From Escherichia coli (GTDB lineage: Bacteria > Pseudomonadota > Gammaproteobacteria > Enterobacterales > Enterobacteriaceae), in assembly GCF_013122565.1 (NCBI RefSeq), contig NZ_CP053258.1: a DNA stretch of 64,000 bases. One strand, 5' to 3'. Shown piece after piece: positions 56,459 through 63,725 of this stretch; the stretch's first letter is position 1, and each line of letters starts with the position of its first letter. Below the pieces are notes generated by a model, which saw nothing but the letters and a program-made list of their open reading frames with translations, had not been told where the DNA came from and did not search any database. The position numbers and the translations under genes are program-made.

Positions 56459-57289
56459 TTACGCGGAGCGAGACGCTGTCGCCCCTGCGCGTGGTGGCAG
56501 AGCAAATGCCACCAGCGCCGGGATGAGATAAATAAACCAGACGGCGACTTCGCTGACGCTCGGCGCTTCCTGATAGCCAAAAATCCCTTCCATCAGCGTG
56601 CCAAACAGCGAGTGAGTTGAGAGCACCGCACTCATATCGAAGGCGATTTCCTGAAAGTGGTTCCACAATCCGGCTTCATGAAATGCGCGAATGGCACCAG
56701 CTGCCAGCCCTGCGGCGACGAAGAGAATAAACAGGCTGGTCCATTTAAAAAATGCACCAAGATTGAGGCGAATACCGCCCCAGTAGAGCAGGAAGCCTAG
56801 CACCACGGCAGTAGCAAGACCGAGCATTGCACCCAGCGGCGGCCAGATCCCGACATCTTGTTGAAATGCCGCCAGCAGGAAAAAGACCGACTCCAGCCCT
56901 TCCCTTGCAACGGCAAAAAAGACCATCATCACCAGCGCCCAGCCATGATGATTTCCACGCTGCAATGCGCTATCGACTGCCTGTTCCAGTTGCACTTTGA
57001 CGTTGCGCGACACTTTGCGCATCCAGAAAACCATCCAGGTAAGGATCACCACGGCGATCACCGCCACGATACCTTCAAACAGTTCCTGTTCTTTTTGCGG
57101 AAATTCGCCGGTGGTTTCGTTAATGAAGATACCCAAGCCCAGGCACAACGCAGCGGCAAGCAACACGCCAATCCACATCACACCAATCCATCGGCCTCGC
57201 TGGGTACGCTTAAGATAGCTGGCAATCAAACTGACAATCAGCGCGGCTTCAAGTCCTTCGCGCAACATAATGAGAAACGGAACAAACAT
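56459..57289 (-). CDS. efeU: EfeU, FTR1-type ferrous iron permease, intact reading frame
   Basis: Two REGLE motifs (REGLEAAL, REGLESVF); uninterrupted ~276 codons. Confidence 0.85.
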   Translation of the reverse strand: MFVPFLIMLREGLEAALIVSLIASYLKRTQRGRWIGVMWIGVLLAAALCLGLGIFINETTGEFPQKEQELFEGIVAVIAVVILTWMVFWMRKVSRNVKVQLEQAVDSALQRGNHHGWALVMMVFFAVAREGLESVFFLLAAFQQDVGIWPPLGAMLGLATAVVLGFLLYWGGIRLNLGAFFKWTSLFILFVAAGLAAGAIRAFHEAGLWNHFQEIAFDMSAVLSTHSLFGTLMEGIFGYQEAPSVSEVAVWFIYLIPALVAFALPPRAGATASRSA

Positions 57290-57346
57290 GCCACCCACCC
57301 TTAAACGTTTTTCTGAGTCAATCTATGCAAAGAAAAGTAAATCGCA

Positions 57347-57831: not shown

Positions 57832-59340
<1,509 letters not shown>

Positions 59341-59528
59341 CTAAAGTCTCCAAAAAATTATTATCGGCAATGTCGAAACTTGCCGTTATATCTGCCACCG
59401 GAACGGGGTAACAGAGTTTATGTTTTACCAGGGCGACCGTATCCTGCCGGAAGCGCTGGTTATTCACAATCGATTTAACACACCATTTACATTAAATTTT
59501 AGTGCTCAGCGACACTATTTTTCATCAG

Positions 59529-59735
59529 GTTGCACTCTCTCACATTTTTTGCGGTTGCACCTTTCAAAAATGTTAACTGTCGCAGAGAAAAAGTCTGAGT
59601 TATTTTTTTAATCCCTGTCATATCGATTTCTTTTATTAACATTTCATTCATTTTTAAGCTTGCTACGCAAGTCACATTTAACATGGTTGCACAAAGTTGC
59701 AACATCGTGGATATTTCACGATAACGTTAAGTTGC
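59529..59735. promoter_or_regulatory. putP-putA control region with five GTTGCA PutA-operator motifs (59529, 59554, 59685, 59695, 59730)
   Basis: Motifs read directly; number and arrangement fit the described put operators. Confidence 0.6.
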
Positions 59736-59762
59736 ACCTTTCAGAACAACAGGAGTAATGGC

Positions 59763-62700
59763 ATGGGAACCACCACCATGGGGGTTAAGCTGGACGACGC
59801 GACGCGTGAGCGTATTAAGTCTGCCGCGACACGTATCGATCGCACGCCACACTGGTTAATTAAGCAGGCGATTTTTTCTTATCTCGAACAACTGGAAAAC
59901 AGCGATACTCTGCCGGAGCTACCTGCGCTGCTTTCTGGCGCTGCCAATGAGAGCGATGAAGCACCGACTCCGGCAGAGGAACCACACCAGCCATTCCTCG
60001 ACTTTGCCGAGCAAATTTTGCCCCAGTCGGTTTCCCGCGCCGCGATCACCGCGGCCTATCGCCGCCCGGAAACCGAAGCGGTTTCTATGCTGCTGGAACA
60101 AGCCCGCCTGCCGCAGCCAGTTGCTGAACAGGCGCACAAACTGGCGTATCAACTGGCCGATAAACTGCGTAATCAAAAAAATGCCAGTGGTCGTGCAGGA
60201 ATGGTCCAGGGGTTATTGCAGGAGTTTTCGCTGTCATCGCAGGAAGGCGTGGCGCTGATGTGTCTGGCAGAAGCGTTGTTGCGTATTCCCGACAAAGCCA
60301 CCCGCGACGCGTTAATTCGCGACAAAATCAGCAACGGTAACTGGCAGTCACACATTGGTCGTAGCCCGTCACTGTTTGTTAATGCCGCTACCTGGGGGCT
60401 GCTGTTTACTGGCAAACTGGTTTCCACCCATAACGAAGCCAGCCTCTCCCGCTCGCTGAACCGCATTATCGGTAAAAGCGGTGAACCGCTGATCCGCAAA
60501 GGTGTGGATATGGCGATGCGCCTGATGGGCGAGCAGTTCGTCACGGGCGAAACCATCGCGGAAGCGTTAGCCAATGCCCGCAAGCTGGAAGAGAAAGGTT
60601 TCCGTTACTCTTACGATATGCTGGGCGAAGCCGCGCTGACCGCCGCAGATGCACAGGCGTATATGGTTTCCTATCAGCAGGCGATTCACGCCATCGGTAA
60701 AGCGTCTAACGGTCGTGGCATCTATGAAGGTCCGGGCATTTCAATCAAGCTGTCGGCGCTGCATCCGCGTTACAGCCGCGCCCAGTATGACCGGGTAATG
60801 GAAGAGCTTTACCCACGTCTGAAATCACTCACCCTGCTGGCGCGTCAGTACGATATTGGTATTAACATCGATGCCGAAGAGGCCGATCGTCTGGAGATCT
60901 CCCTCGATCTGCTGGAAAAACTCTGTTTCGAGCCGGAACTGGCAGGCTGGAACGGCATCGGTTTTGTTATTCAGGCTTATCAAAAACGCTGCCCGTTGGT
61001 GATTGATTACCTGATTGATCTCGCCACCCGCAGCCGTCGCCGTCTGATGATTCGTCTGGTGAAAGGCGCGTACTGGGATAGTGAAATCAAGCGTGCGCAG
61101 ATGGACGGCCTTGAAGGTTATCCGGTTTATACTCGCAAGGTGTATACCGACGTTTCTTATCTTGCCTGTGCGAAAAAGCTGCTAGCGGTGCCAAATCTAA
61201 TCTACCCGCAGTTCGCGACGCACAACGCCCATACGCTGGCGGCAATTTATCAACTGGCAGGTCAGAACTACTATCCGGGTCAGTACGAGTTCCAGTGCCT
61301 GCATGGTATGGGCGAGCCACTGTATGAGCAGGTCACCGGGAAAGTTGCCGACGGCAAACTTAACCGTCCGTGTCGTATTTATGCTCCGGTCGGTACACAT
61401 GAAACGCTGCTGGCGTATCTGGTGCGTCGCCTGCTGGAAAACGGTGCTAACACCTCGTTTGTTAACCGTATTGCCGACACCTCTTTGCCACTGGATGAAC
61501 TGGTCGCCGATCCGGTCACTGCTGTAGAAACACTGGCGCAACAGGAAGGGCAAACTGGATTACCGCATCCGAAAATTCCCCTGCCGCGCGATCTTTACGG
61601 TCACGGGCGCGACAACTCGGCAGGGCTGGATCTCGCTAACGAACACCGTCTGGCCTCGCTCTCTTCTGCCCTGCTCAATAGTGCACTGCAAAAATGGCAG
61701 GCCTTGCCCATGCTGGAACAACCGGTAGCGGCTGGTGAGATGTCGCCCGTTATTAACCCTGCGGAACCGAAAGATATTGTGGGCTATGTGCGTGAAGCCA
61801 CGCCGCGTGAAGTAGAACAGGCGCTGGAAAGTGCGGTTAATAACGCGCCAATCTGGTTTGCCACTCCTCCGGCTGAACGCGCGGCAATTTTACATCGCGC
61901 TGCCGTGCTAATGGAAAGCCAGATGCAGCAACTGATTGGTATTCTGGTGCGTGAAGCCGGAAAAACCTTCAGTAACGCCATTGCCGAAGTGCGCGAAGCG
62001 GTCGATTTTCTCCACTACTACGCCGGACAGGTGCGGGATGATTTCGCTAACGAAACCCACCGTCCATTAGGGCCTGTGGTGTGTATCAGTCCGTGGAACT
62101 TCCCGCTGGCTATTTTTACCGGGCAGATCGCTGCCGCACTGGCGGCAGGTAACAGCGTGCTGGCAAAACCGGCAGAACAAACGCCGCTGATTGCCGCGCA
62201 AGGGATCGCCATTTTGCTGGAGGCGGGTGTACCGCCAGGCGTGGTGCAATTGCTGCCAGGTCGGGGTGAAACCGTGGGCGCGCAACTGACGGGTGATGAT
62301 CGCGTGCGCGGGGTGATGTTTACCGGTTCAACCGAAGTCGCTACGTTACTGCAACGCAATATCGCCAGCCGCCTGGACGCTCAGGGTCGCCCTATTCCGC
62401 TCATCGCTGAAACCGGCGGCATGAACGCGATGATTGTCGATTCTTCAGCACTGACCGAACAAGTCGTAATAGATGTGCTGGCCTCGGCGTTCGACAGTGC
62501 GGGTCAGCGTTGTTCGGCGCTGCGCGTGCTGTGCCTGCAAGATGAGATTGCCGACCACACGTTGAAAATGCTACGCGGCGCAATGGCCGAATGCCGGATG
62601 GGTAATCCGGGTCGCCTGACCACCGATATCGGTCCGGTGATTGATAGCGAAGCGAAAGCCAATATCGAGCGTCATATTCAGACCATGCGTAGCAAAGGCC

Positions 62701-63725
62701 GTCCGGTGTTCCAGGCGGTGCGGGAAAACAGCGAAGATGCCCGTGAATGGCAAAGCGGCACCTTTGTCGCCCCGACGCTGATCGAACTGGATGACTTTGC
62801 CGAATTGCAAAAAGAGGTTTTTGGTCCGGTGCTGCATGTGGTGCGTTACAACCGTAACCAGCTGCCGGAGCTGATCGAGCAGATTAACGCTTCCGGTTAT
62901 GGTCTGACGCTTGGCGTCCATACGCGCATTGATGAAACCATCGCCCAGGTCACTGGCTCGGCCCATGTTGGTAACCTGTATGTTAACCGTAATATGGTGG
63001 GCGCAGTGGTTGGTGTGCAGCCGTTCGGCGGCGAAGGGTTGTCCGGTACCGGGCCGAAAGCAGGCGGTCCGCTCTATCTCTACCGTCTGCTGGCGAATCG
63101 CCCGGAAAGTGCGCTGGCAGTAACGCTCTCGCGTCAGGATGCAGAGTATCCGGTCGATGCGCAGTTGAAAGCCGCATTGACTCAGCCGCTAAATGCACTG
63201 CGGGAATGGGCAGCAAATCGTCCAGAATTGCAGGCGTTATGTACGCAATATGGCGAGCTGGCGCAGGCAGGAACACAACGATTGCTGCCAGGGCCGACGG
63301 GTGAACGCAACACCTGGACACTGCTGCCGCGTGAGCGCGTATTGTGTATCGCGGATGATGAGCAGGATGCGCTGACTCAGCTCGCCGCCGTGCTGGCGGT
63401 GGGCAGCCAGGTACTGTGGCCGGATGACGCGCTGCATCGTCAGTTAGTAAAGGCATTGCCATCGGCAGTCAGCGAACGTATTCAACTGGCGAAAGTGGAA
63501 AATATAACCGCTCAACCCTTTGATGCGGTGATCTTCCACGGTGATTCGGATCAGCTTCGCGCATTGTGTGAAGCCGTTGCCGCGCGGGATGGCGCAATTG
63601 TTTCGGTGCAGGGTTTTGCCCGTGGCGAAAGCAATATCCTTCTGGAACGGCTGTATATCGAACGTTCGCTGAGTGTGAATACCGCTGCCGCTGGCGGTAA
63701 CGCCAGCTTAATGACGATCGGTTAA
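59763..63725 (+). CDS. putA: PutA, trifunctional proline dehydrogenase / P5C dehydrogenase / repressor
   Basis: Start at ATG 59763 (MGTTTMGVKLDDATRERIK, RHH N-terminus), 1320 aa; track ORF from 59697 is an upstream over-extension. Confidence 0.9.
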   Translation: MGTTTMGVKLDDATRERIKSAATRIDRTPHWLIKQAIFSYLEQLENSDTLPELPALLSGAANESDEAPTPAEEPHQPFLDFAEQILPQSVSRAAITAAYRRPETEAVSMLLEQARLPQPVAEQAHKLAYQLADKLRNQKNASGRAGMVQGLLQEFSLSSQEGVALMCLAEALLRIPDKATRDALIRDKISNGNWQSHIGRSPSLFVNAATWGLLFTGKLVSTHNEASLSRSLNRIIGKSGEPLIRKGVDMAMRLMGEQFVTGETIAEALANARKLEEKGFRYSYDMLGEAALTAADAQAYMVSYQQAIHAIGKASNGRGIYEGPGISIKLSALHPRYSRAQYDRVMEELYPRLKSLTLLARQYDIGINIDAEEADRLEISLDLLEKLCFEPELAGWNGIGFVIQAYQKRCPLVIDYLIDLATRSRRRLMIRLVKGAYWDSEIKRAQMDGLEGYPVYTRKVYTDVSYLACAKKLLAVPNLIYPQFATHNAHTLAAIYQLAGQNYYPGQYEFQCLHGMGEPLYEQVTGKVADGKLNRPCRIYAPVGTHETLLAYLVRRLLENGANTSFVNRIADTSLPLDELVADPVTAVETLAQQEGQTGLPHPKIPLPRDLYGHGRDNSAGLDLANEHRLASLSSALLNSALQKWQALPMLEQPVAAGEMSPVINPAEPKDIVGYVREATPREVEQALESAVNNAPIWFATPPAERAAILHRAAVLMESQMQQLIGILVREAGKTFSNAIAEVREAVDFLHYYAGQVRDDFANETHRPLGPVVCISPWNFPLAIFTGQIAAALAAGNSVLAKPAEQTPLIAAQGIAILLEAGVPPGVVQLLPGRGETVGAQLTGDDRVRGVMFTGSTEVATLLQRNIASRLDAQGRPIPLIAETGGMNAMIVDSSALTEQVVIDVLASAFDSAGQRCSALRVLCLQDEIADHTLKMLRGAMAECRMGNPGRLTTDIGPVIDSEAKANIERHIQTMRSKGRPVFQAVRENSEDAREWQSGTFVAPTLIELDDFAELQKEVFGPVLHVVRYNRNQLPELIEQINASGYGLTLGVHTRIDETIAQVTGSAHVGNLYVNRNMVGAVVGVQPFGGEGLSGTGPKAGGPLYLYRLLANRPESALAVTLSRQDAEYPVDAQLKAALTQPLNALREWAANRPELQALCTQYGELAQAGTQRLLPGPTGERNTWTLLPRERVLCIADDEQDALTQLAAVLAVGSQVLWPDDALHRQLVKALPSAVSERIQLAKVENITAQPFDAVIFHGDSDQLRALCEAVAARDGAIVSVQGFARGESNILLERLYIERSLSVNTAAAGGNASLMTIG

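What the first reader, a model, noticed from the sequence alone, without database searches (positions are those of the whole stretch)
59529..59735. Five GTTGCA PutA operator motifs in the put control region
The number and spacing fit PutA autorepression of the divergent putP/putA promoters; an ordinary core feature.
Basis: established knowledge. Interest (0 to 1): 0.2.

Follow-up and report, generated by a model that had tools for sequence, protein, structure and literature searches.

The report
Known PutA operators between putP and putA
The five GTTGCA motifs are real and are the already characterised binding sites through which the E. coli PutA enzyme-repressor shuts off the proline-utilisation genes putP and putA, so this is an ordinary, textbook feature.

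Summary
Observation confirmed. GTTGCA occurs on the + strand at 59529, 59554, 59686, 59696 and 59731. The last copy ends at 59736, so the finding's end coordinate is one base short. A sixth, minus-strand hit at 59698-59703 arises because site 4 is the palindrome GTTGCAAC. All lie in the 422-bp gap between divergent putP (57832-59340, -) and putA (59763-63725, +). About 0.19 hits are expected there against 6 seen (P ~6e-8).

The region is 98-99.5% identical to the put control region of nearly all complete E. coli genomes. It differs from K-12 at four bases, none in a motif, and the motif offsets are identical. The adjacent PutA carries an N-terminal ribbon-helix-helix domain identical to PDB 2GPE/2RBF.

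Across 80 put loci from Escherichia to Pseudomonas, GTTGCA is 19-fold denser in the intergenic region than in flanking genes. The O3/O4 pair is conserved throughout, O1/O2 in Enterobacteriaceae, and O5 only in E. coli.

Minor new points:
- O1/O2 lie 95-125 bp upstream of the dominant mapped putP start site.
- The 68-aa "hypothetical protein" annotated across the operators looks spurious.
- An undescribed covarying stem-loop sits in the putP leader.

The parts
59341..59762 (.). put control region: 422-bp, 38% G+C intergenic region between divergent putP and putA
   Evidence: ORFs, K-12 annotation, composition. 98-99.5% identical in 5412 of 5426 complete E. coli genomes.
59529..59534 (+). PutA operator O1 (caGGTTGCACtc)
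   Evidence: Exact GTTGCA. AGGTTGCAC block conserved across Enterobacteriaceae genera. Same offset as K-12.
59554..59559 (+). PutA operator O2 (gcGGTTGCACct), 25 bp from O1
   Evidence: Matches the cGGTTGCACc recognition sequence tabulated for PDB 2RBF. From my own knowledge, 59547-59567 (TTTGCGGTTGCACCTTTCAAA) is the 21-mer co-crystallised with PutA52; this was not checked here.
59686..59691 (+). PutA operator O3 (atGGTTGCACaa)
   Evidence: Part of GGTTGCACAAAGTTGCAAC, invariant in 15 of the 16 aligned Enterobacteriaceae (Shimwellia differs by one base just before O3 and carries a third GTTGCA repeat). The 10-bp pair is present out to Pseudomonas.
59696..59703 (+). PutA operator O4 (aaAGTTGCAAca), 10 bp from O3; the 8-bp palindrome GTTGCAAC also scores on the minus strand
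   Evidence: I3 palindrome.
59731..59736 (+). PutA operator O5 (taAGTTGCACct), 32 nt before the putA ATG; shares a 16-nt repeat with O2
   Evidence: D2, 94% identical to the O2 flank. Present in all 7 E. coli sequences examined. Absent from E. albertii and every other genus.
59763..63725 (+). putA, trifunctional PutA (1320 aa): RHH repressor domain, proline dehydrogenase and P5C dehydrogenase
   Evidence: Pfam PutA_1st (RHH), PRODH, Pro_dh-DNA_bdg, Pro_dh and Aldedh. Residues 1-52 identical to PDB 2GPE/2RBF.
57832..59340 (-). putP, Na+/proline symporter (502 aa)
   Evidence: Pfam SSF, E 1.5e-149. Annotation in K-12 and strain MEW.
59434..59434 (-). Dominant mapped putP transcription start (U00096.2 position 1078434), giving a 94-nt leader. 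Minor starts map to 59476 and 59420.
   Evidence: The TSS table of Kim et al. 2012 gives a 51-nt upstream sequence identical to window 59434-59484 on the minus strand. Cappable-seq scores are 43.9 for the major start and 3.0 and 2.1 for the minor ones.
59540..59547 (+). TCACATTT (CRP-like right half-site) 6 bp before GGTTGCAC of O2. Its 22-bp footprint would overlap O1.
   Evidence: 21-nt direct repeat D1 shared with the O3 module. CTCAC is conserved. The CRP assignment is inference from the consensus.
59672..59679 (+). TCACATTT (CRP-like right half-site; TGCTA-N6-TCACA at 59661-59676) 6 bp before GGTTGCAC of O3
   Evidence: GTCACA conserved in 15 of the 16 aligned Enterobacteriaceae. The CRP assignment is inference.
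59391..59415 (-). Covarying stem-loop in the putP leader (+20 to +44 of the major transcript): 9-bp stem, 7-nt loop CCGUUCC. It is a neighbour of the operators, not part of them.

Best explanation
These are the five PutA operators (O1-O5) of the Escherichia coli put control region.

Mechanism. [quoted passage not shown] As a dimer it inserts a two-stranded beta-sheet into the major groove at each GTTGCA, and flanking bases tune affinity (best form GGTTGCAC). When proline is scarce, cytosolic oxidised PutA occupies the sites. O3, O4 and O5 cover the putA core promoter and early transcribed region, so PutA represses its own gene. O1 and O2 on the putP side repress putP. When proline is abundant it reduces the FAD cofactor, PutA moves to the membrane to act as an enzyme, the operators empty and both genes are transcribed.

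Shown here: the motifs, their statistical excess, their exact positional identity with K-12, the identity of the RHH domain with the crystallised one, and deep evolutionary conservation of O1-O4.

Taken from established knowledge: actual PutA binding, the split of three sites for putA and two for putP, and the redox/membrane switch.

Inferred here: O3/O4 lie within the putA -35/spacer/-10 region. O1/O2 probably act on a minor upstream putP promoter that looks CRP-dependent, or by anti-activation. They do not appear to act by occluding the dominant putP start site at 59434.
For: Motifs and enrichment: five + strand GTTGCA in 208 bp against about 0.05 expected. 5 of the 8 RGTTGCAM matches in 64 kb are here.

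Location: between divergent putP (SSF family) and putA (RHH + PRODH + ALDH).

Identity with the characterised region: motif offsets are identical to K-12, with 4 substitutions, none in a motif. The region is present at >=95% identity in 5420 of 5426 E. coli genomes.

Repressor: PutA residues 1-52 are identical to PDB 2GPE and 2RBF.

Literature that could be read: PutA/2RBF recognition sequence cGGTTGCACc, citing Zhou 2008 (PMC4655474). The supplement row for the RegulonDB-derived PutA motif reads '10 | 5'; the column headers were not seen, and I read it as width 10 and 5 sites. The repress-then-relocate model is summarised in PMC5879082.

Phylogenetic footprint: in 80 put loci GTTGCA occurs at 10.6 per kb in the intergenic regions against 0.57 per kb in flanking genes. 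The O3/O4 pair with 10-bp spacing sits 60-90 nt before the putA ATG from Escherichia to Pseudomonas. The O1/O2 pair with 25-bp spacing is kept in Enterobacteriaceae. Flanking positions never show C at -1, nor G or T at +7 (<=2% each in Enterobacterales).
Against: No binding experiment can be done here, and the primary mapping paper could not be read.

O5 is absent outside E. coli, so conservation gives it no support.

O1/O2 sit at -95 to -125 relative to the dominant putP start site found in two genome-wide TSS datasets. That is too far for simple promoter occlusion at that start.

No putA start site was found in the data I could read, so placing O3-O5 relative to the putA promoter rests on weak consensus matches. 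The promoter scan found no strong sigma-70 match there.
Confidence: 0.95

Rival explanations
1. The five hexamers are chance occurrences in an AT-rich intergenic region and have no function.
For: GTTGCA is a short motif and is not enriched in the window overall (35 hits against 48 expected).
Against: 6 hits fall where 0.19 are expected (P ~6e-8), and no other 422-bp stretch has more than 2. Four of the five are conserved in position across many genera while the surrounding sequence diverges.
Confidence: 0.01
2. The motifs are promoter elements rather than repressor sites. They could be sigma-54 -12 boxes (TTGCA), or sigma-70 -35-like hexamers (TTGCAC resembles TTGACA) repeated because the region holds several promoters.
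For: TTGCA is the sigma-54 -12 core. TTGCAC of O3 lies 17 bp upstream of a conserved GATATT that could serve as a -10. Several putP start sites exist.
Against: None of the five has the GG of a -24 box 12 nt upstream; the bases there are TT, TT, TT, TT and TA (read). All five point in the putA direction, including the two on the putP side. The promoter scan found nothing at these hexamers. An overlap of O3 with a -35 is compatible with, and expected for, an operator.
Confidence: 0.03
3. The conservation reflects the 68-aa protein annotated on the minus strand across O1-O4 (59499-59705; 'hypothetical protein' in RefSeq), not DNA-binding sites.
For: PGAP annotates this CDS in E. coli genomes.
Against: The reading frame is interrupted by stop codons or frameshifts in E. 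albertii, Citrobacter, Kluyvera, Pseudocitrobacter and Pluralibacter. The only conserved 'peptide' stretches are those that overlie the operators, for example MLQLCAT, which is O4 plus O3 read backwards. There is no Pfam match. O5 lies outside the ORF.
Confidence: 0.01

Closest known systems
E. coli K-12 put control region with PutA operators O1-O5 (Zhou et al. 2008, J Mol Biol 381:174; PDB 2RBF is PutA52 bound to O2)
   Same: Same locus. Five GTTGCA sites at identical offsets from putA, 99.1% identical DNA, and an identical RHH domain.
   Different: Four point differences outside the operators (59580, 59670, 59707, 59743). The window comes from a non-K-12 lineage: efeU is intact, and the window is ~97.5% identical to the best complete genome over 25 kb.
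put control regions of other Enterobacterales, including the classically studied Salmonella typhimurium put operon (Hahn et al. 1988, cited)
   Same: Divergent putP-putA, an O3/O4 tandem GGTTGCACAAAGTTGCAAC, and an O1/O2 pair 25 bp apart.
   Different: They lack O5. The intergenic length varies from 366 to 700 bp. Some have operators elsewhere, for example next to the putP leader hairpin in Yersinia and Photorhabdus. No Salmonella locus was among the 80 retrieved.
Pseudomonas putida-type put region (PutA with RHH domain; PDB 2JXG-2JXI)
   Same: GTTGCA operators and a proximal 10-bp tandem pair 78/88 nt before putA. The RHH domain is related (E 2e-20).
   Different: The distal sites are arranged differently: + strand at ~311 and ~245, minus strand at ~268. 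Flanks are more strictly GGTTGCACC. The putP leader hairpin is absent.
Other ribbon-helix-helix repressors with arrays of short operators (Arc, MetJ, CopG, NikR, ParD)
   Same: A beta-sheet reads a 6-9 bp site in the major groove. Adjacent sites one helical turn apart (O3/O4) resemble tandem RHH operator subsites.
   Different: PutA's RHH domain is fused to a 1,270-residue enzyme. Release is by redox-driven membrane relocation, not by a small co-repressor. The sites are spread over 208 bp serving two promoters.

Membership tests
PutA operators of the E. coli put control region | GTTGCA core hexamer, five copies | tested here: met
   Five + strand copies at 59529, 59554, 59686, 59696 and 59731. 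All fit RGTTGCAM.
PutA operators of the E. coli put control region | Located in the intergenic region between divergently transcribed putP and putA | tested here: met
   putP 57832-59340 (-) and putA 59763-63725 (+).
PutA operators of the E. coli put control region | Cognate repressor present: trifunctional PutA with an N-terminal RHH domain | tested here: met
   Pfam PutA_1st (RHH), E 1.3e-21. Residues 1-52 identical to PDB 2GPE and 2RBF.
PutA operators of the E. coli put control region | Sites align with those of the characterised K-12 region | tested here: met
   Ungapped 422/422 alignment to K-12 with 4 mismatches, none in a motif, and identical offsets.
PutA operators of the E. coli put control region | Coincidence with the experimentally mapped PutA binding sites (gel shift, crystal structure, RegulonDB) | tested here: inconclusive
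   The primary paper is not held. Indirect support: PMC4655474 lists PutA/2RBF as cGGTTGCACc, and its supplement row for the RegulonDB-derived PutA motif reads '10 | 5', taken as width 10 and 5 sites. That the O2 21-mer equals window 59547-59567 comes from memory only.
PutA operators of the E. coli put control region | PutA binds the sites and represses putA and putP in a proline-reversible way | not testable with these tools
   Needs EMSA or footprinting and reporter assays. The model is summarised in PMC5879082.
PutA operators of the E. coli put control region | Evolutionary conservation expected of functional operators | tested here: met
   O1-O4 are conserved in position across genera, and GTTGCA density is 19-fold higher in the intergenic regions than in the flanks. 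Not met for O5, which is specific to E. coli.
Sigma-54 promoter -12/-24 elements (considered and rejected) | GG at -24, spaced 12 nt upstream of the GC of TTGCA | tested here: not met
   The bases at the required positions are TT, TT, TT, TT and TA for the five sites (read).

The most novel reading that the evidence does not exclude
The operators are textbook, but three details that the evidence does not exclude go beyond the textbook.

1. O5 is a recent gain of the E. coli lineage, so three-site control of putA is species-specific.

2. O1/O2 do not occlude the dominant putP promoter (start at 59434, 95-125 bp away). Instead they may act on a minor CRP-dependent upstream promoter (start at 59476) by overlapping its CRP-like site, that is, by anti-activation.

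3. The putP leader carries an undescribed stem-loop conserved across Enterobacterales (59391-59415, loop CCGUUCC) that adds a post-transcriptional layer, possibly linked to the sRNA GcvB.
Probability: 0.3. Interest if true: 0.35.

Novelty: already known. Interest (0 to 1): 0.1.

Why it matters
It matters little as a discovery. The put control region is a classic example of an enzyme that doubles as its own transcriptional repressor, and the five operators were mapped and one was crystallised with the RHH domain in 2008.

The check is useful mainly as a positive control for the scan: motif, coordinates and interpretation all hold.

The comparative data add small refinements. The core of the system is the O3/O4 tandem, conserved from Escherichia to Pseudomonas. 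O5 is specific to E. coli. RefSeq annotates a spurious ORF over the operators. The putP leader contains a covarying hairpin absent from Rfam that may deserve a separate look.

Tried and rejected
Primary literature. I tried to read Zhou 2008 by PubMed id and by PMC2665032, Zhou 2008b (PMC2666929), Tanner 2008 (PMC2664619), Zhu 2013 (PMC3731750) and a guessed id for Singh 2011. None is held.

Text searches. Combining PutA with GTTGCA mostly matched 'putative' or primer sequences. Only PMC4655474 was useful.

Start-site data. No putA start site could be found. Kim 2012 lists none, the stored Cappable-seq table has nothing at 10781xx, Thomason 2015 is not held, and the Conway 2014 supplements are not held.

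Promoter scan. The sigma-70 scan gave no more hits than shuffles and none at the putA side. Promoter placement is therefore inference.

Rfam. The scan of 59250-59850 at E<=1 found nothing.

Rejected readings. Sigma-54 was rejected because there is no -24 GG. The coding-ORF explanation was rejected because the frame is broken in other genera.

GcvB. Full-length RNAduplex against the putP leader was uninformative, with 37% of shuffles doing as well. Only the duplex restricted to the R1 seed region stood out. The 8-nt complementarity between the hairpin loop and GcvB nt 11-18 is probably coincidence, because by my own manual pairing of the sequence (no fold was computed) that GcvB segment appears to lie within stem-loop 1.

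Full report
**Observation.** Reading 59300-60000 and scanning the whole window confirms GTTGCA on the + strand at 59529, 59554, 59686, 59696 and 59731. The last copy ends at 59736, so the reported end (59735) is one base short. Site 4 is GTTGCAAC, a palindrome, which gives a sixth hit on the minus strand at 59698-59703.

The hexamer is not over-represented in the window: 35 hits against 48 +/- 6.6 in shuffles. Even so, 6 of the 35 fall inside 422 bp where about 0.19 are expected (Poisson P ~6e-8). Five same-strand copies in 208 bp give P ~2e-9. No other 422-bp stretch holds more than two. With one flanking base on each side (RGTTGCAM) only 8 matches exist in 64 kb, and 5 are these sites.

**Context.** The motifs lie in the 422-bp, 38% G+C gap between two genes.
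- On the minus strand is a 502-aa ORF (57832-59340). It is a sodium:solute symporter (Pfam SSF, E 1.5e-149) annotated putP in E. coli.
- On the + strand is a 1320-aa ORF starting at the ATG at 59763 (to 63725). It carries PutA_1st (RHH), PRODH, Pro_dh-DNA_bdg, Pro_dh and Aldedh domains, and is annotated putA.
- PutA residues 1-52 are identical to the crystallised DNA-binding domain, PDB 2GPE and 2RBF.

The intergenic region matches 5420 of 5426 complete E. coli genomes, 4608 of them at >=99% identity. Against K-12 it aligns without gaps, with four substitutions (59580, 59670, 59707, 59743). None is in a motif, and all five motifs have the same offsets from the putA ATG: 234, 209, 77, 67 and 32 nt. 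The same five sites are intact in E2348/69, WP7-S18-ESBL-09, MEW and SCPM-O-B-8794.

**Literature.** The primary paper (Zhou et al. 2008, J Mol Biol 381:174, PMC2665032) is not held. From my own knowledge it reports:
- five operators, each containing GTTGCA;
- three critical for putA repression and two for putP;
- a 2.25 A structure of PutA52 on the 21-bp operator 2;
- a 15-fold loss of affinity when operator-4 flanks are substituted into operator 2.

The window is consistent with this. O1-O3 read GGTTGCAC, O4 reads AGTTGCAA and O5 reads AGTTGCAC.

Readable support comes from three places. PMC4655474 tabulates PutA/2RBF as cGGTTGCACc, citing Zhou 2008. Its supplement row for the RegulonDB-derived PutA motif reads '10 | 5'; I did not see the column headers and read this as width 10 and five sites. 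PMC5879082 summarises the model: PutA binds operators between putA and putP at low proline and moves to the membrane at high proline.

**Independent evidence from comparison.** A scan of species-representative genomes with PutA residues 1-300 returned 80 loci from Escherichia to Pseudomonas. In 79 of them putP lies divergently upstream of putA.
- GTTGCA occurs at 10.6 per kb in these intergenic regions against 0.57 per kb in the flanking coding DNA, a 19-fold difference.
- The O3/O4 tandem (10-bp spacing, 60-90 nt before the putA ATG) is present in almost every locus, including Pseudomonas.
- In a 16-genus Enterobacteriaceae alignment, GGTTGCACAAAGTTGCAAC is invariant in 15 of 16 sequences (Shimwellia has one change and an extra repeat), and the O1 and O2 blocks (25-bp spacing) are conserved while the sequence between them diverges.
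- Flanking positions are constrained: C is essentially absent at -1, and G or T is essentially absent at +7 (<=2% each in Enterobacterales).
- O5 is the exception. An exact site exists only in E. coli. E. albertii has CGCTATACC at that position and other genera have unrelated sequence. O5 shares a 16-nt repeat with O2, GTTGCACCTTTCA(A/G)AA.

**How it most likely works.** Established knowledge gives the mechanism. One RHH dimer per PutA dimer reads each GTTGCA. Occupancy at low proline represses both genes. Proline reduces the FAD cofactor and drives PutA to the membrane, which clears the operators.

My inferences concern placement. On the putA side, O3 and O4 fall inside both plausible core promoters: TTGCAC-17-GATATT, and TTAACA-16-CAACAT. 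O5 would lie in the early transcribed region. Steric repression of putA is therefore straightforward whichever promoter is real. No putA start site could be found in the readable data.

On the putP side, two genome-wide datasets place the dominant start at U00096.2 position 1078434. This is window 59434, confirmed by a 51-nt exact sequence match. O1 and O2 are then at -95 to -125, too far for occlusion. A minor start at 59476 (Cappable-seq score 3.0 against 43.9) puts O1 at -53 to -58.

A 21-nt module, TCACATTT-N6-GGTTGCAC, is repeated at O2 and O3, and its TCACA is conserved. TCACATTT is a perfect CRP right half-site. The putP-side copy would centre a CRP site at -60.5 of the minor start and would overlap O1. 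A reasonable, untested model is that PutA at O1/O2 blocks CRP-dependent activation of an upstream putP promoter, while the dominant start is basal.

**Rivals.**
- Chance is excluded by the statistics and the footprint.
- Sigma-54 -12 boxes are excluded because none of the five has GG 12 nt upstream.
- The 68-aa 'hypothetical protein' that RefSeq annotates across O1-O4 (59499-59705, minus strand) does not explain the conservation. Its frame is broken by stops or frameshifts in E. albertii, Citrobacter, Kluyvera and others. Only the parts overlying operators are conserved, and it has no Pfam match. It is most likely a spurious gene call.

**Noticed in passing: a leader stem-loop.** Between the dominant putP start and the start codon lies a stem-loop at 59391-59415 on the minus strand, nt +20 to +44 of the leader. 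It reads UCUGUUACC-CCGUUCC-GGUGGCAGA.
- The loop core CGUUCC is invariant in 34 distinct sequences from Escherichia, Citrobacter, Kluyvera, Leclercia, Enterobacter, Cedecea, Serratia, Yersinia, Hafnia, Pantoea and Photorhabdus, while the stem changes by compensatory substitutions.
- On the ungapped alignment 80% of cells pair, against 31-43% when the partner is slid by 1-3 columns. Cells changed on both sides number 75, against 25 +/- 6.5 in shuffles (0 of 500 reach it).
- G-U pairs favour the putP-sense strand: 23 G.U against 11 A.C overall, and 17 against 5 in the inner five pairs.
- One E. coli polymorphism (59411, strain WP7-S18) converts a U.G pair to C-G.
- The minimum-free-energy fold contains the hairpin, although the leader as a whole is no more stable than shuffles (z -0.24).
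- Rfam has no match, and the hairpin is absent from the Pseudomonas loci.

Its function is unknown. An invariant loop suggests recognition by a trans-acting factor. A review notes that earlier microarrays suggested putP is regulated by the sRNA GcvB through its R1 seed region in Salmonella (PMC9299463). The R1 segment gives a predicted duplex of -27.3 kcal/mol with leader nt 39-70, reached by 2 of 1000 shuffles. This is a lead only. The loop's 8-nt complementarity to GcvB nt 11-18 is probably coincidental.

**Verdict.** The feature is already known and ordinary.

Noticed in passing
window 59391-59415 (minus strand): Covarying stem-loop in the putP 5' leader (+20 to +44 of the transcript starting at 59434). 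The loop core CGUUCC is invariant across 11 genera of Enterobacterales, while the stem varies by compensatory changes (80% paired against 31-43% in slid controls; 0 of 500 shuffles reach the covariation). There is no Rfam match, and it is absent in Pseudomonas. Function unknown.
   Followed up: partly
window 59365-59396 (minus strand; leader nt 39-70) and hairpin loop 59399-59406: The GU-rich R1 seed region of the sRNA GcvB gives a predicted duplex of -27.3 kcal/mol with the putP leader (2 of 1000 shuffles as good). PMC9299463 notes that microarrays suggested GcvB regulates putP via R1 in Salmonella. The loop CGUUCCGG is also complementary to GcvB nt 11-18, but by my own manual pairing (no fold computed) that segment appears to lie within GcvB stem-loop 1.
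   Followed up: partly
window 59731-59736; L003 and other loci: Operator O5 exists as GTTGCA only in E. coli (7 of 7 sequences examined). E. albertii has GCTATA at that position and all other genera have unrelated sequence. O5 and its 3' flank repeat the O2 sequence (16 nt, 94% identical).
   Followed up: partly
window 59499-59705 (minus strand): RefSeq/PGAP annotates a 68-aa 'hypothetical protein' spanning operators O1-O4 in E. coli genomes. The frame is broken in E. albertii, Citrobacter, Kluyvera and others, and there is no Pfam match. It is most likely a spurious gene call over a regulatory region.
   Followed up: yes
window 59540-59560 and 59672-59692: A 21-nt direct repeat, TCACATTT-N6-GGTTGCAC, precedes both O2 and O3, and its TCACA is conserved across genera. 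TCACATTT is a perfect CRP right half-site. The putP-side copy would overlap O1 and sit at -60.5 of the minor putP start at 59476.
   Followed up: partly
window 59434, 59476, 59420 (minus strand): Published TSS data place the dominant putP start 94 nt before the ATG. O1/O2 are then at -95 to -125, so they cannot occlude that promoter.
   Followed up: partly
window 56459-57298 (minus strand): efeU is an intact 279-aa ORF here, whereas it is a frameshifted pseudogene in K-12. The window is therefore not from K-12.
   Followed up: no
window 39001-64000: This 25-kb stretch is at best ~97.5% identical to any of 5,426 complete E. coli genomes, fairly evenly along its length (94.7-99.2% per kb), although gene order is standard (pdeT, dgcT, pgaABCD, phoH, efeBOU, putP, putA, rutR). 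This suggests a somewhat divergent Escherichia or Shigella lineage.
   Followed up: partly
L085 (E. coli EC22, NZ_CM169479.1): An IS1 sits directly upstream of the put region and everything from pgaB to the putP side of the control region is missing. O1/O2 and putP are lost, and O3-O5 remain in front of putA.
   Followed up: no
L025, L028, L030 (Yersinia); L043, L047 (Photorhabdus): In these genera a PutA operator (GTGCAAC or GTGCAAT in the putP sense) lies immediately 5' of the leader hairpin. The repressor site and the RNA element are adjacent there, unlike in E. coli.
   Followed up: no
window 59365-59385 (minus strand): A second predicted leader hairpin (GGCAAGU...AUUGCC) shows apparent compensatory changes in Leclercia and Enterobacter (GACAGCC/GGCTGTC) by eye. 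It is deleted in Pluralibacter and Superficieibacter.
   Followed up: no
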